From the human T2T-CHM13v2.0 reference genome, Homo sapiens: DNA of 64,000 nt. This document shows, in pieces, positions 3,204-9,099 of the stretch. The position numbers and the translations under genes are program-made. The stretch lies in NCBI RefSeq assembly GCF_009914755.1, contig NC_060937.1. One strand, given 5' to 3'. The notes below the pieces were generated by a model, which worked only from the letters and a program-made list of their open reading frames with translations, was not told where the DNA came from and made no database searches. Position 1 is the stretch's first letter. Each line of letters opens with the position of its first letter.

Positions 3204-4198
3204 AACCCTGGCTCACCAGCTCTATAATTGCCCCAATGAGAAGAGAAAAAGAATGGATGTGATGAAGAAGCTACTCTATTCCTTTCACTCATATCCAATT
3301 GGCCATTTATATCCCATTTCACACCTAACTCCAAGGGAGGTTGTGAAATGTAGCTTCTAGCTACATGCCTGCTAAAATGAGGGCCTTATAACTAAAGAAA
3401 GACTACGGGAGCTGGTAAAAGTCTCAGCTATAGATTCCTGTGAGCCAGGGCCTCTGACCTGGCCCCTGTGATAGCTCATCAGCCAGTGGTAGCCCATAGC
3501 CTCCTGCGAAACATCTCTTTGCATACAAAGGTACTGTGATTCGATCTCCCCAACGATTTTTAATAATATCTTTTCCTGTTGAACAAAGGATTTAAGATCT
3601 GTGTGGTGATTTTAGTATGATTCTGGCCTGATGTCCTCAATTTACAGGATCTGAAGATGAAGAGAGTTGGGGACGTGACTCTCCCAGGTAAACAGCCACA
3701 TTTAGCAGACAGGACATTCCAAGGACTTAGAAGTTATCTCCCAGGGCTCTAGGGCAAGGCCAAACTCTGATTGCTTCCATGAGATAGCCAGTTTGTTAGT
3801 GGCAAAGCTAAGATTGGAACCCAGCATGCTGAAATTTCTTTCACTATATATGGGGTTTTAAAATGAATATGATAATCTAAAAATTATCCCACTAGAATGG
3901 AATACAGTGACACACTTAGCCTTATATGCCATTCTCTTATTTGGATAATGCAGTATTTTATTAATTTTTAGAATTACAGTGACACGCTGCTAACTCCTAC
4001 TTAACTTGTGGTTTTTACTTGTCTGGATCGATTTTATGCCATACATTTGCAAAGTAAGTTCTGTCCTAGCATGCATTTGTATAGATTTCTTCTTTCGTGA
4101 GTTACTTCTTGTACTCTGCATGTGTCACTTTTGAATTAGTTAAATTTGTAGTCCTCTTGGAGCCTGTTTAATATGAGATGCTTTAACACATCAAACCC

Positions 4199-4502
4199 GA
4201 GGACATGCTTGTGACCCGCCTTCTGGAAGGAAGTGGCTAACTCTGGTGACCGCCATGGAGCAGTGGGTTCTGGTGGAGATGGTACAGGCGCTTTACGAGG
4301 CTCCTGATTACCATCTTATTTTGGAAGGGATTCTGATACTCTGGATAATCAGACTTCTTTTCTCTAAGACTTACAAATTACAAGAACGATCTGATCTTAC
4401 AGTCAAGGAAAAAGAAGAACTCATTGAAGAGTGGCAACCAGAACCTCTTGTTCCTCCTGTCCCAAAAGACCATCCTGCTCTCAACTACAACATTGTTTTA
4501 GG
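4199..4502 (+). pseudogene. SPTLC1P5: Processed SPTLC1 pseudogene segment (5'UTR plus first exons, intronless); probably the locus annotated SPTLC1P5
   Basis: Translation [78 protein letters not shown] matches the SPTLC1 N-terminus with no introns; original ATG appears mutated to CTG at 4243. The P5 symbol is recalled from its position near SLAIN1. Confidence 0.88.
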
Positions 4503-6113
4503 ACGGAGTCTTGCTCTGTCACCAGGCTGGAGTGCAGTGGTGCGATCTTGGCTCACTGCAACCTCCATCTCCCGGGTTCAAGCCATTCTCCTGCCTCAGC
4601 CTCCCGAGTAGCTGGGACTACAGGCACAAGCCACCATGCCTGCCTAATTTTTGTATTTTCAGTAGAGATGGAGTTTCACCATGTTGGCCAGAATGATCTC
4701 GATCTCCTTTTTTTTAATTAAAAAGTAAACTTTAATGTCAAAAATGCAAACTTGGGGAGGGCAGAAAGATCACACACAAGGCTGTCATTTCACACTTGGA
4801 AGGTTGCACAGCAGCCGGGCAGAGACGCTCCTCACTTCCCAGATGGTGAGGGGGCCAGGCAGAGGCGCTCCTCACTTCCCAGGTGGTGGGGGGGCTGGGC
4901 AGAGGCGCTCCTCCCTTACAAACGGTGAGGGGGCCGGGCAGAGGTGCTCCTCACTTTCCAGACAGGGCGGCGGCTGGGCAGGGGCGCTCCTCACTTCCCA
5001 GGCGGTGCGGGGGATGGGCAGAGGCACTCCTCCCTTACAAACCGTGAGGGGGCCGGGCAGAGGCACTCCTCACTTCGTACATAGGGCGGCGGCTGGGCAG
5101 AGGCCCTCCTCACTTCGCAGACAGGATGGTGGCAAGGCAGAGGCGCTTCTCATTTCCCAGACGGTGAGGGGGCCGGGCAGAGGCACTCCTCACTTCGCAG
5201 ACAGGATGGAGGCGAGGCAGAGGCGCTTCTCATTTCCCAGACGGTGAGGGGGCCGGGCAGAGGCACTTCTCACTTCGTAGACATGGCTGCGGCTGGGCAG
5301 AGGCCCTCCTCACTTCGCAGACAGGACGGCGGCGAGGCAGAGGCGCTCCTCATTTCCCAGACGGTGAGGGGGCCGGGCAGAGGCACTTCTCACTTCGTAG
5401 ACATGGCTGCGGCTGGGCAGAGGCACTCCTCACTTCGCAGACAGGACGGCGGCAAGGCAGAGACGCTCCTTACTTCCCAGATGGGGCAGCGGCTGGGCAG
5501 AGGTGCTCTTCACTTCCCATACCATGAGGTGGCCAGGCACAGGTGTTCGTCACTTCCCAGATGGGGTGGAGGCTGGGCAGAGGCAGTGCTCCTCCTCAAT
5601 TCCCAGATGGTTGGCGGCTGGGCAGAGGTGCTCCTCACTTCCCAGACAGGGCAGTGGCCAGGCAGAAGTGCTCCTCACTTCCCACGGTGTAAGGGGGCCA
5701 GGCAGAGGCACTCCTCGCTTCGCAGACAGGACGGCAGCCGGGCAGAGGCACTCCTCACTTCCCAGACAGGGCGGCAGCCTGGCAGAGGCACTCCTCACTG
5801 CCCAGACGGGGCAGGGCCCAGGCAGAGGCGCCCCTCACTTCCCAGACTGTGAGGCGGCTGGGCAGAGGTGCTCGTCACTTCCCAGATAGGGCGGGGGCCC
5901 GGCAGAGGCACTCCTCACTGCCCAGACGGTGTGGTGGCCAGGCAGAGGCGCTCCTCACTTCCCAGACGGTGGGGCAGCTGGGCAGAGGCGCTCCTCACTT
6001 CCCAGATGGTGCAGGCAGAGATGCTCCTCAGGTCTCAGTCTCTTGACCTCCTGATCCGCCCACCTGGGCCTCCCAAAGTGCTGGATTACAGGCGTGAGCC
6101 ACCACACCTGCCC
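4503..6113 (-). mobile_element. AluS-like element split in two (4503-4708 and 6031-6113) by an SVA2 insertion
   Basis: Alu sequence ACGGAGTCTTGCTCTGTC...GATCTCGATCTCCT stops at 4708 and resumes GGTCTCAGTCTCTTGACCTC...CACCTGCCC at 6031. Confidence 0.88.
4709..6030 (-). mobile_element. SVA2-type element (GC-rich ~37-40 bp VNTR, short unique 3' end, polyA)
   Basis: About 30 units of GGCAGAGGCGCTCCTCACTTCCCAGAC-type SVA VNTR (4815-6030); no SINE-R or CCCTCT hexamer; ~100 bp unique tail with ATTAAA on minus (4731-4736) and a T-run at 4708-4715; degenerate ~14 bp TSD (4695-4708 vs 6031-6044). Confidence 0.8.
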
Positions 6114-7336: not shown

Positions 7337-8731
7337 TTTGAGCGAGTTGTGCACAGACGAAACTAAGGGTCAGAAGTGGAGAGGATACTCCTAAGTCACC
7401 CACTTCTCTGTGGCCGGGTGCACACTGGGCATCTGGGAGTTTATGACATCACCATGGGGCTGGTGACAGAGCCAGGGTGTGGAGGAGTGCTTAGGAGCCC
7501 AGTGAGGGTGCCTACAAGAGGAGTCAAAGGGCAAAGGGTGAGACCCTTCCACCGGTCCAGCTGGACTCTAGCCTCAGGGACGTCCTGCTCCTGGGGGCAG
7601 GTGTGTGGCCCTGGATGGGCCCCCCTGTGGGGCTGTTGGGGGTGCGGGGCTGATCTGCCAGAGCCCTTCTGCCTGGCGCCTGGCCCAGGTGCTGGCTGGC
7701 ACCCAGTGGCCCTGTCTTGGCCAGCCCTGTCCCCCGGGTTACAGGGCCAGAACCTGGAAGCAGAGCGCAGGACCAGCCAGATCCCGCCAGGCTCCCCCGG
7801 GGCCTCTCCAGTGCCTCTGTGCCACCTGGAGCCAGGCCCGCCTTCTCCATGGCTGCCGTGGCCTCAAGGGCCACCAGCCTCGCTCCGCAGGTTTCCAAAG
7901 AGAGGACGCGGTGCCCTGACCTGACTGGGTGCGCCTCTTACCACATGCCTCCCTGGCAGGCAAGGTCTCCACTTTTTACAAATTTGCCTGAGACCATTCC
8001 TCAGGTCATTCAGGTGGTCATGGCCCAGCCAGGCTTTGAACCCGGGCTGTGCAATTCCACAGCTGGCGCTCTGGCCTGTGTGCCTCATGATCATGGATAC
8101 AGCATCTATTCTTATTTTTTCCTGTAGTCCTGGGGGTACTTAGCACCGTGGCATATCTGTAATAAGCACATGCACACCTTGAAGGAGGTCTTCACTTCAA
8201 CATACAAGTTGACCATGGCATGCTCTGGGCTCCAGTCCTCTACAAAGATGTAGGGCAGGAACTACCAGTTGTCAGCACAGCACCATCCCACATTGCTCTT
8301 CTAATGGAGCCTTTCACCCCAGATGTTCTTTCTCGTCTGATGGGAAGGATCCAAGTATGTAAAGATTATGTTCTAGATCAGCTTTGGTCTGTCCTAAAAG
8401 AAATTTGCCAGTGGATTATTCCATATGGATAAAAGTCAGTTTCTCTGGTCTTCCTGGAATGTGTCTAGAAAGCAAACACATTATTTACAAGTTCATAGTA
8501 GATCAATGTATTGGATTAAAATATGACAAACATAATTTGGTCATTGTGAGCATGCCAGCTCAGTCAACTATTCACCACACATGATGCCCTAAATATAACT
8601 CTAGGTTTTCTTATGCCCAAGAGAGGGACATACTCTTGGGTGTCTGGACTAGGGAAACATGTATGAAAAACCATTTGGCCACTCTACATCTTGTTATTGG
8701 AGAATCGAAACCATCTATATTCAAAGATATT

Positions 8732-8785
8732 ATTAAAAGGCAAGAAGTTAACTTCAAAATAAATAAATAAATAAAAATAAATAAA
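8732..8785 (+). other. PolyA signal (ATTAAA 8732-8737) and decayed polyA tail of the chimeric retrocopy
   Basis: ATTAAA about 19 nt before an (AAAT)n tail at 8756-8785, followed by ACATCAAACCC (8786-8796), identical to 4188-4198. Confidence 0.85.
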
Positions 8786-9099
8786 ACATCAAACCCTGGG
8801 ACTAAATAACAATTTTACTAAAGTTAATATGCATTATACCCATTCTACACATACTTTTAATTTACTATATCACTACTGTAAATAATACATTAAATCATCA
8901 TTTACTCCTTTAGAAGTTATATCATTTTCCATATTTTGCTATTTTGACTATGTATTCTAATATTTTCTCTGGAAGTATAGCTTGTTGGTCTACAATTCTA
9001 GACTTGTTCTCCTCTAAATGTGGCTCCCCTTTTCACTTTTAGGCTTTTCCATAAATACTTTTATCTTACATTTGTGTGTAGAACTATATTCTCAATGCA

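What the first reader, a model, noticed from the sequence alone, without database searches (positions are those of the whole stretch)
4185..8796. One 4.6-kb chimeric retrocopy, SPTLC1 exons - Alu - SVA2 - antisense NPAP1-like gene, mobilised as a unit
Seen: ACATCAAACCC flanks both ends (4188-4198, 8786-8796), a TTT/AA L1-endonuclease-like site precedes the left copy, and ATTAAA plus an A-tail end the insert. All four modules lie inside these boundaries. Known: L1 ORF2p retroposes spliced mRNAs with TSDs, and SVA2 VNTRs seeded composite retrotransposons (SVA, LAVA, PVA, FVA). Inference: a SPTLC1-promoter transcript spliced into an Alu/SVA2/NPAP1-like locus acted as the source of a composite mobile family. 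The several SPTLC1 pseudogenes and dispersed UPF0607 copies could be full-length and 5'-truncated members of it, with the antisense Alu plus VNTR giving an SVA-like architecture.
Basis: partly seen in the sequence, partly recalled or inferred. Interest (0 to 1): 0.88.

Follow-up and report, generated by a model that had tools for sequence, protein, structure and literature searches.

The report
Retrocopy of an alternative SPTLC1 transcript
This 4.6-kb insert is one of nine L1-made copies of an unusual SPTLC1 messenger RNA whose last exon lies inside an intron and carries an Alu, an SVA2 repeat and a backwards NPAP1-like gene, so it is a processed pseudogene family and not a new kind of mobile element.

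Summary
Window 4199-8785 is a single insert with an 11-bp target-site duplication, an ATTAAA signal and an A-rich tail.

The source is SPTLC1 itself on chr9. Exons 1-3 are spliced with GT-AG junctions onto an antisense-Alu acceptor in intron 3. The transcript ends 3.7 kb further on at an intronic ATTAAA. That terminal exon holds an Alu split by an older SVA2, and an antisense UPF0607 (POM121/NPAP1-like) copy.

CHM13 holds nine independent full-length retrocopies. Each has its own A-tail; eight of nine have a target duplication that beats shuffles. An older 5'-truncated copy on chr8 uses the same cleavage site. The tested stretch of the canonical SPTLC1 3' exon has no dispersed copy.

The copies form a star phylogeny (3.1-4.2% K2P from the parent). 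None carries flanking sequence of another copy. So the gene is the single master, not a self-propagating family.

The VNTR is inverted relative to canonical SVA, and there is no hexamer, so the architecture is not SVA-like. The UPF0607 ORF is intact in five of nine copies but evolves neutrally (pN/pS 1.19).

Verdict: a new member of a known kind. It explains SPTLC1P5 and LOC100129307 here (and their counterparts at the eight other loci) as one event each.

The parts
4188..4198 (.). Left target-site duplication ACATCAAACCC, preceded by TTT|AAC (L1 endonuclease-like site)
   Evidence: 0 of 300 shuffles reach the score
4199..4299 (+). SPTLC1 exon 1 (101 nt), starting at or within about 2 nt of the 5' limit of homology with the chr9 gene
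   Evidence: matches C9:104281800-104281899; the parent has a GT donor after ...ACGAG
4300..4407 (+). SPTLC1 exon 2 (108 nt), intron removed
   Evidence: matches C9:104278941-104279051, 98% identity; AG/GT at the parent's borders
4408..4502 (+). SPTLC1 exon 3 (95 nt), ending exactly at the parent's donor site (..TCAGG|gtaaat)
   Evidence: matches C9:104275227-104275323, 97% identity
4503..4707 (-). 3' two-thirds of an Alu, antisense to the retrocopied RNA. Its first base follows the parent's poly-T + GAG acceptor. The left copy of the SVA2 target duplication is at 4695-4707.
4708..4813 (-). SVA2 3' end on the minus strand: A-run (T-run 4708-4715 on +), ATTAAA (4731-4736 read on -) and about 95 nt of unique sequence
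   Evidence: at least 191 candidate loci genome-wide, 40 scored at 93-100% identity; 4 of 4 other copies show flank | T-run | unique sequence; 3 of the 4 have a TRF-detected 40-bp array next to it.
4814..6016 (-). SVA2 VNTR, 30 units of 40 bp. Its orientation is opposite to the VNTR of canonical SVA when the antisense Alu is taken as reference.
6031..6113 (-). 5' part of the same Alu. The right copy of the SVA2 target duplication is at 6031-6043.
   Evidence: Three chr10 paralogues carry this Alu unsplit, i.e. the empty site.
6086..7336 (-). Intact 416-aa UPF0607 ORF (LOC100129307), POM121 family; its stop codon lies in the Alu
   Evidence: Neutral evolution: pooled pN/pS 1.19.
6114..8673 (-). 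Full extent of the NPAP1/UPF0607-like homology, antisense to the retrocopied RNA
   Evidence: chr15 NPAP1-region matches fall at window 6253-7118 and 7998-8662; L039 matches 6365-8673
8732..8737 (+). ATTAAA poly(A) signal used by the source transcript
   Evidence: the same signal is present in the parent and all nine copies; the parent's downstream sequence is GU-rich
8756..8785 (+). Degenerate A-tail, (TAAA)n
8786..8796 (.). Right target-site duplication ACATCAAACCC

Best explanation
The insert is an L1-mediated processed retrocopy of an alternative SPTLC1 transcript.

How the source arose (chr9, minus strand):
- Transcription starts at the SPTLC1 promoter.
- Exons 1, 2 and 3 are spliced normally.
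- Exon 3 is then spliced to the AG that follows the poly-T of an antisense Alu in intron 3.
- The RNA runs 3.7 kb further to an intronic ATTAAA site.

That terminal exon was assembled earlier in separate steps:
- An Alu lay at the 3' end of a UPF0607 (NPAP1/POM121-like) unit.
- An SVA2 inserted into that Alu with its own 12-13-bp target duplication.
- The whole block is shared with chr9:100.01M as a DNA-level duplication of about 6.7 kb. In SPTLC1 intron 3 it lies antisense to the gene. Which copy is the original is not resolved.

L1 ORF2p then reverse-transcribed this polyadenylated RNA at nine genomic sites, including chr13. My rough, recall-calibrated age is 10-20 Myr.

Shown here: the splice junctions, the parent locus, the nine copies with their target duplications and tails, and the star phylogeny. 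Inferred: that L1 was the machinery, the age, and that the isoform was expressed in the germline.

The UPF0607 ORFs in these copies are antisense passengers without a promoter of their own, and they drift neutrally.
For: Parent locus
- Exons 1-3 match C9:104281800-899, 104278941-9051 and 104275227-323.
- The rest of the insert matches C9:104272956-104269276, downstream in the same orientation.
- All junctions in the parent are GT-AG. The last acceptor reads ttttttGAG|ACGGAGTC and the window reads ...TTTTAGG|ACGGAGTC.
- The parent has ATTAAA followed by GU-rich sequence. The copies end 12-25 nt after the signal.

Copies
- Nine loci are collinear over the whole insert and share no flanking homology: chr13, chr8:27.29M, chr10:31.39M, chr6:23.72M, chr2:68.54M, chr6:64.37M, chr16:66.15M, chr1:151.20M, chr9:28.16M.
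- Their 5' ends lie within 30 nt of each other.
- Eight of nine target duplications beat shuffles (p <= 0.04). Five of these match exactly over 12-16 bp or score at least 12 (the window's own is 11 bp exact, 14 of 15 with one mismatch).
- In some searches every first-look candidate was scored (13 of 13, 30 of 30, 20 of 20). No young 5'-truncated copy was found.

Single master
- K2P distance to the parent is 3.1-4.2%. Internal ML branches are at most 0.003, with bootstrap 13-55 except one node at 82.

Earlier assembly
- One Alu is split by the SVA2, with a 13-column overlap.
- The three chr10 paralogues have the unsplit Alu.
- chr9:94.58M and chr9:100.01M are collinear with the parent beyond both ends of the terminal exon, over 10.6 kb and 6.7 kb.
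Against: - One of nine copies (chr6:23.72M) has no recognisable target duplication. Two others have only short matches (chr2 7 bp exact; chr16 9 of 10), and chr6:64.37M has 9 bp exact.
- I could not see any transcript evidence that the exon 3-to-Alu junction is used today. The gene table for chr9 was not available, so I do not know whether this isoform is annotated.
- The parent's VNTR is about 640 bp in CHM13, shorter than in six of the nine copies. The parent array must have changed since.
- No primate genome could be searched, so the insertion dates and the empty chr13 site are untested.
Confidence: 0.9

Rival explanations
1. A true composite non-autonomous retrotransposon family. On this view the SPTLC1 exon-Alu-VNTR combination gave the RNA an SVA-like ability to recruit L1, and copies seeded further copies.
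For: - Nine of nine young copies are full length despite being 3.3-4.6 kb and holding a GC-rich VNTR.
- The tested 1.39 kb of the canonical SPTLC1 3' exon has only its self hit in CHM13, and none of the nine exon 1-3 retrocopies continues into exon 4.
- The RNA carries about 205 nt of antisense Alu just after the host exons. This resembles SVA_F1 (MAST2) and pt_SVA_D6 (STK40), where a first exon is spliced to the Alu-like region (PMC6139936, passages).
Against: - The VNTR is inverted relative to SVA in 3 of 3 SVA loci examined, and there is no hexamer.
- The phylogeny is a star with the gene locus among the tips.
- There are no 5' or 3' transductions, and every 3' end maps to the parent's own poly(A) site.
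Confidence: 0.08
2. A chimera made by L1 reverse-transcriptase template switching from an Alu/SVA2/UPF0607-antisense RNA onto SPTLC1 mRNA during insertion.
For: Such chimeric retrocopies are known (recalled, not checked here). The insert joins unrelated modules.
Against: - The junction lies exactly at the exon 3 donor and at an AG acceptor of an Alu that sits 2.27 kb downstream in the same intron, in the same order and orientation.
- The identical junction is present in all nine independent insertions.
Confidence: 0.01
3. DNA-level segmental duplication of a pre-existing chimeric block.
For: Two chr9 loci (94.58M and 100.01M) really are DNA-level duplicates of the parent region.
Against: The nine copies lack introns 1-3. 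They end in A-tails at one cleavage region, eight of nine have a target duplication that beats shuffles, and none shares flanks.
Confidence: 0.01

Closest known systems
Processed pseudogenes (L1-mediated retrocopies of spliced, polyadenylated mRNAs)
   Same: Introns are removed at canonical junctions. There is a poly(A) signal and tail, a target-site duplication at an A-rich, T-preceded target, dispersed loci, and a single intron-containing parent.
   Different: The template is a non-canonical isoform whose 3.7-kb terminal exon is intronic and made of repeats plus a reversed gene copy. All nine young copies are full length, while the tested stretch of the canonical 3' exon left no copy.
SVA_F1 (MAST2 exon 1) and chimpanzee pt_SVA_D6 (STK40 exon 1): host first exons spliced into the SVA Alu-like region (PMC6139936, passages read)
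   Same: Host-gene 5' exon(s) end exactly at the exon border and are joined to an AG acceptor in antisense Alu sequence, followed by a VNTR. The product was retrotransposed repeatedly.
   Different: - The acceptor belongs to an ordinary Alu that hosts an SVA2 on the opposite strand.
- The VNTR is therefore inverted.
- There is no SINE-R.
- Three exons are carried, not one.
- The copies radiate from the gene locus rather than from daughter elements.
- There are 9-10 copies, against 84-94.
SVA2 (VNTR plus short unique 3' sequence; PMC3287187 and PMC4432496, passages)
   Same: The nested element at 4708-6030 has this layout: an array of 40-bp units, about 95 nt of unique 3' sequence, ATTAAA, an A-run and its own target duplication. 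The unique part is dispersed at 191 or more candidate loci.
   Different: Here it is only a passenger, read in antisense within the retrocopied RNA.
UPF0607 / NPAP1 / NPAP1L POM121-related retrogene family (Neumann et al. 2014, PMC3942032; abstract and passages; supplementary table S2)
   Same: The minus-strand ORF hits Pfam POM121. The region matches the chr15 locus at 67-77% identity; I take that locus to be NPAP1 from recall.
   Different: The paper treats UPF0607 copies as intronless retrogenes or duplicates and does not mention SPTLC1 (0 occurrences). Here the nine copies that are at least 95% identical were propagated backwards, as cargo of a host-gene transcript.

Membership tests
L1-mediated processed pseudogene | Exons joined exactly at the parent's GT-AG introns | tested here: met
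   three junctions, all GT-AG in the parent and contiguous in the window.
L1-mediated processed pseudogene | 3' end at a poly(A) signal, followed by an A-tail not encoded in the parent | tested here: met
   ATTAAA, cleavage 12-25 nt later, then a tail. The parent continues tgtcattttg...
L1-mediated processed pseudogene | Target-site duplication at an L1 endonuclease-like site | tested here: met
   11 nt exact (14 of 15 when extended), 0 of 300 shuffles reach it. The site is TTT|AAC. Eight of nine family members pass.
L1-mediated processed pseudogene | Empty orthologous site in an outgroup | not testable with these tools
   No primate genome is held; one search states that G000 has no relatives.
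SVA-type VNTR composite retrotransposon (SVA, LAVA, PVA, FVA) | Antisense Alu-like region followed by the VNTR in SVA sense orientation | tested here: not met
   in L027, L028 and L029 (3 of 3 SVA loci) the VNTR is opposite to the window's when the Alu-like parts are aligned.
SVA-type VNTR composite retrotransposon (SVA, LAVA, PVA, FVA) | 5' (CCCTCT)n hexamer | tested here: not met
   the insert starts with SPTLC1 exon 1. One search shows the hexamer in the control locus L028.
SVA-type VNTR composite retrotransposon (SVA, LAVA, PVA, FVA) | Amplification through daughter source elements (subfamily structure, transductions) | tested here: not met
   star tree; no transduced flanks.
SVA_F1-like exon trapping | Host exon 3' border joined to an AG acceptor in antisense Alu sequence | tested here: met
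SVA_F1-like exon trapping | The acceptor lies in the Alu-like domain of an SVA that supplies the 3' end | tested here: not met
   it is an ordinary Alu. The 3' end comes from an intronic ATTAAA 3.7 kb downstream.
SVA2 | VNTR + short unique 3' sequence + poly(A), with L1 hallmarks | tested here: met
   Target duplication 9 of 13 identical in the window; the empty site is seen in the chr10 paralogues. No SVA2 consensus was available; the name rests on the layout described in PMC3287187 and PMC4432496.
POM121 / NPAP1 / UPF0607 | Match to the POM121 family profile | tested here: met
   PF15229, E 2e-21, 77.3 bits (cut-off 27), residues 154-358.

The most novel reading that the evidence does not exclude
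The alternative SPTLC1 RNA was a preferred L1 substrate, not merely an abundant one. About 205 nt of antisense Alu sits directly behind GC-rich host exons, possibly helped by the VNTR even though it is inverted. This could have given the RNA SVA-like access to ORF2p. It would explain a burst of nine full-length 3.3-4.6-kb copies, roughly in the period when SVA is thought to have arisen (my recall-calibrated estimate), while no copy of the tested canonical 3' exon stretch exists. The human UPF0607 'gene family' would then be largely a by-product of this burst, copied backwards.
Probability: 0.2. Interest if true: 0.65.

Novelty: new member of a known kind. Interest (0 to 1): 0.4.

Why it matters
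- It merges two separately annotated pseudogenes, SPTLC1P5 and LOC100129307, into one insertion event. By the same evidence, the eight other exon 1-3 loci and their linked UPF0607 copies are one event each.
- It shows that nine of the eleven human UPF0607 copies that are at least 95% identical were spread in antisense, as cargo of a host-gene isoform. This bears on claims that these ORFs are genes. They evolve neutrally (pN/pS 1.19).
- It offers a natural comparison for what makes an RNA a good L1 trans-substrate: nine copies of the alternative isoform against no copy of the tested canonical 3' exon stretch from the same promoter.

Tried and rejected
- A PF00155 search of the genome was meant to find canonical SPTLC1 retrocopies. 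It returned nine matches, most interrupted by stops, at seven loci elsewhere (chr12 x2, chr1 x2, chr14, chrX, chr6) and none at SPTLC1 exons, so it was uninformative.
- A 10-kb query around the canonical SPTLC1 3' end was swamped by Alu hits; 42,479 candidates, 39 scored, and the self hit was not listed. I replaced it with a 1,386-bp repeat-free query ending at an AATAAA, which gave only the self hit.
- I recalled a RefSeq short isoform (NM_178324), but the one paper found lists only variant names. The parent's predicted ORF is 122 aa. I make no claim that it is that isoform.
- Paper searches for this family in print found nothing relevant: 'UPF0607' (3 papers, none mentions SPTLC1), 'SPTLC1P' (14 papers, judged from titles and abstract starts in the listing to be expression or GWAS studies), 'SPTLC1'+'retrocop' (0), 'SPTLC1'+'processed pseudogene' (5, unrelated), 'SPTLC1'+'exonization' (0). 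Subscription journals are not covered. One of the supplementary files of PMC3942032 could not be searched.
- Selection on the UPF0607 ORF was rejected. The pooled count is 60 synonymous against 217 nonsynonymous changes.
- Template switching and segmental duplication were rejected as origins of the nine copies; see the rival explanations.
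Full report
**1. The observation**

The window is CHM13 chr13:76,880,001-76,944,000. The sequence read shows ACATCAAACCC at 4188-4198 and again at 8786-8796. With one mismatch the duplication extends to 15 nt, and none of 300 shuffles of the upstream flank reached its score. The left copy is preceded by TTT|AAC. 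ATTAAA lies at 8732-8737. The templated sequence ends at 8755, and a 30-nt (TAAA)n-type tail follows.

Tandem Repeats Finder gives a 40-bp array of 30.0 units at 4814-6016. A 17-nt unit motif occurs 24 times in the window, all on the + strand between 4827 and 6006, where 0.01 matches are expected by chance. The boundaries and the four modules are therefore real.

**2. The source locus**

The window's own genome could be searched. The 304-bp SPTLC1 part gave 13 matches, and all 13 first-look candidates were scored:
- the window itself;
- eight other loci with the three exons contiguous;
- three separate exon matches on chr9 minus strand (104281800-899, 104278941-9051, 104275227-323), which are the SPTLC1 gene;
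- one isolated exon-3 match at chr9:94577805-901.

The UPF0607 part and the 3' 1.45 kb each matched the same nine loci at 95-100% identity. They also matched chr9:104269276-104271910, just downstream of SPTLC1 exon 3 on the same strand, and chr9:94.58M (30 of 30 and 20 of 20 candidates scored).

In the parent, exon 1 ends ...ACGAG|gtgggc. Exon 2 is bounded by ...cttag| and |gtacga. Exon 3 is bounded by ...ctgtag| and ...TCAGG|gtaaat. The next segment starts after tttttttttGAG|ACGGAGTC, which is the poly-T and AG of an antisense Alu 2.27 kb into intron 3. The window reads ...TTTTAGG|ACGGAGTC.

The parent carries the same ATTAAA, followed by AGGTAAGAAGTTAACTTCtgtcattttgttaattgttttc, a GU-rich downstream region. 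The alternative terminal exon is C9:104272956-104269276, 3,681 nt in CHM13. The virtual transcript is 3,985 nt and has a 122-aa ORF: 86 residues from exons 1-3, then Alu-encoded residues.

**3. The family**

All nine loci are collinear with the window insert from within 30 nt of its 5' end to the poly(A) site, with no homology in the flanks. The 5' ends fall at query positions 1, 8, 20, 24, 24, 26, 30, 30 and 30. Seven copies end at ...GTTAA, the window at ...GTTAACTTC, and chr6:64.37M at ...GTTAACTTCTGTC. All of these match the parent's genomic sequence, so they reflect alternative cleavage sites of one signal.

Target-site duplications:

| Copy | Duplication |
|---|---|
| chr13 (window) | 11 exact, 14 of 15 extended |
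| chr8:27.29M | 15 |
| chr10:31.39M | 13 |
| chr1:151.20M | 12 |
| chr9:28.16M | 16 |
| chr6:64.37M | 9 |
| chr2:68.54M | 7 |
| chr16:66.15M | 9 of 10 |
| chr6:23.72M | none recognisable |

Eight of nine beat shuffles at p <= 0.04.

Insert lengths run from 3,321 to 4,553 bp. They differ mainly in the VNTR, which ranges from about 0 bp in chr8:27.29M to about 1,200 bp in chr13 and chr10. The parent's is about 640 bp.

No young 5'-truncated copy exists. Every locus at 96% identity or more is one of the nine copies, the parent, or the chr9:94.58M duplicate.

An older member does exist. chr8:36.60M (L021) starts inside the VNTR, ends at the same ...GTTAA plus an A-rich tail, and has an 11-bp duplication AAGAAAGAGTG. 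It is 10-11.5% diverged from all the others.

**4. One master, not a chain**

Over 3,409 aligned non-VNTR columns, K2P distances between the parent and the copies are 3.1-4.2% (1.8-2.8% without CpG columns). Distances between copies are 3.2-4.8%.

Of 655 polarised biallelic sites, 310 are singletons and 232 are shared by all young sequences. No other pattern exceeds 6 sites. The ML tree has internal branches of at most 0.003, with bootstrap 13-55 except one node at 82 (chr13 + chr6:64.37M).

No copy carries another copy's flank or tail. The SPTLC1 locus is therefore the single source.

Terminal branches of the nine copies are 0.014-0.026 (the chr9:94.58M duplicate is 0.027). Using hominoid divergence values that I recall and did not test here, this corresponds to roughly 10-20 Myr, after the split from Old World monkeys.

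**5. How the terminal exon was assembled**

The two Alu pieces (4503-4707 and 6031-6113) align to one Alu, with 13 overlapping columns: GATCTCGATCTCC and GGTCTCAGTCTCT. Between them lies a minus-strand element made of an A-run, ATTAAA, about 95 nt of unique sequence, and the VNTR.

The unique part has at least 191 candidate loci genome-wide (40 scored, 93-100% identity). In 4 of 4 other copies fetched it is bounded by a T-run and an unrelated flank. In 3 of those 4 it is followed by a TRF-detected 40-bp array. This is the layout that the literature gives for SVA2 (PMC3287187 and PMC4432496, passages).

Three chr10 paralogues (L036-L038) carry the UPF0607 3' end joined to the same Alu unsplit, with the target sequence present once. 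This is an empty site for the SVA2 insertion.

chr9:100.01M shares Alu + SVA2 + UPF0607 with the parent over 6.7 kb, at about 87-91% identity outside the VNTR. The homology starts 466 bp before the acceptor and runs 2.5 kb beyond the poly(A) site. chr9:94.58M shares 10.6 kb at 94.9% identity, including exon 3 and the intron. Both are DNA-level duplications.

So the modules arrived separately at the source and together at chr13.

**6. Is the architecture SVA-like?**

I used the window's antisense-Alu piece and VNTR piece as probes.
- L028 is a canonical SVA. It has (CCCTCT)n at 1388-1429, then Alu-like sequence in the same orientation as the window's, then the VNTR in the opposite orientation.
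- L027 and L029 are minus-strand SVAs and show the same relative arrangement.

That is 3 of 3. The retrocopied RNA therefore carries antisense Alu plus antisense VNTR, whereas SVA carries antisense Alu plus sense VNTR.

The closest known analogues are SVA_F1 and pt_SVA_D6, in which a host first exon is spliced to an acceptor in the Alu-like region (PMC6139936, passages).

**7. The passenger ORF**

The minus-strand ORF at 6086-7336 (416 aa) hits Pfam POM121 at E 2e-21. Its state across the loci:
- intact at 416 aa in five of nine copies;
- 407 aa in one copy;
- broken in three copies, in the parent, and in the chr9:94.58M duplicate.

Changes on the nine terminal branches pool to 60 synonymous and 217 nonsynonymous, giving pN/pS 1.19. 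That is neutral drift.

**8. Control for the canonical mRNA**

None of the nine exon 1-3 retrocopies continues into exon 4. A 1,386-bp repeat-free stretch ending at an AATAAA, at the position I expected for the canonical 3' end, has only its self hit in the genome. Its upstream frame ends ...AQAVLL*. That this is the canonical last exon rests on recall. A first attempt with 10 kb was swamped by Alu hits.

**9. Literature**

Neumann et al. 2014 describe UPF0607 as POM121-related, intronless and primate-specific, and do not mention SPTLC1. Their table S2 lists accession numbers only. No paper in the searched library links SPTLC1 pseudogenes with UPF0607. Subscription journals are not covered.

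**10. Verdict**

The dispersed SPTLC1 exon 1-3 and young UPF0607 copies are indeed one family.

It is a family of processed pseudogenes from one master gene. It does not have SVA architecture, and there is no sign of secondary sources. What stays open and interesting is why this isoform, and apparently not the canonical mRNA, was copied nine times at full length.

Noticed in passing
L036, L037, L038 (chr10:88.26M, 80.73M, 51.54M): Three loci with identical layout: about 440 bp of the UPF0607 3' end joined to an unsplit Alu, at 78-88% identity to the window. They look like a triplicated older fragment and serve as the empty site for the SVA2 insertion.
   Followed up: partly
L009 (chr8:27.29M), corresponding to window 4808-6051: This retrocopy lacks the whole VNTR and a few flanking bases. 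This is a clean deletion, or it was copied from a template with a collapsed array.
   Followed up: no
L026 (chr10:71.107M) 1857-4052: A 1.76-kb VNTR has a partial SVA2 unique sequence at one end and reversed Alu-like matches at the other. It may be an intermediate between SVA2 and Alu-bearing composites.
   Followed up: no
window 8666-8751: The last approximately 85 nt before the cleavage site, including the ATTAAA, match about ten dispersed loci at 76-81% identity. The poly(A) signal therefore sits in a fragment of an old interspersed repeat.
   Followed up: no
window 7878-8056: RefSeq lists a 'silencer' functional element inside the antisense NPAP1-like part of the retrocopy. The other eight copies would carry the same sequence.
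   Followed up: no
L020 (chr9:100.01M): The older genomic paralogue has a longer ATG ORF (463 aa) than the young copies, and a further Alu inserted in the SVA2 T-run. It may be the bona fide UPF0607 gene.
   Followed up: no
G000 chr12:9.528M, chr1:172.499M, chr12:16.391M, chr14:57.802M, chr1:55.250M, chrX:55.255M, chr6:7.211M: Long intronless matches to the aminotransferase family PF00155; five of the seven loci have internal stops. These are probably processed pseudogenes of other aminotransferase genes.
   Followed up: no
chr13 (window) and chr6:64.37M (L013): The two copies with the longest 5' ends (positions 1 and 8) also use the more distal cleavage sites, and they group together at bootstrap 82. 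They may derive from the same allele or the same period of the master.
   Followed up: partly
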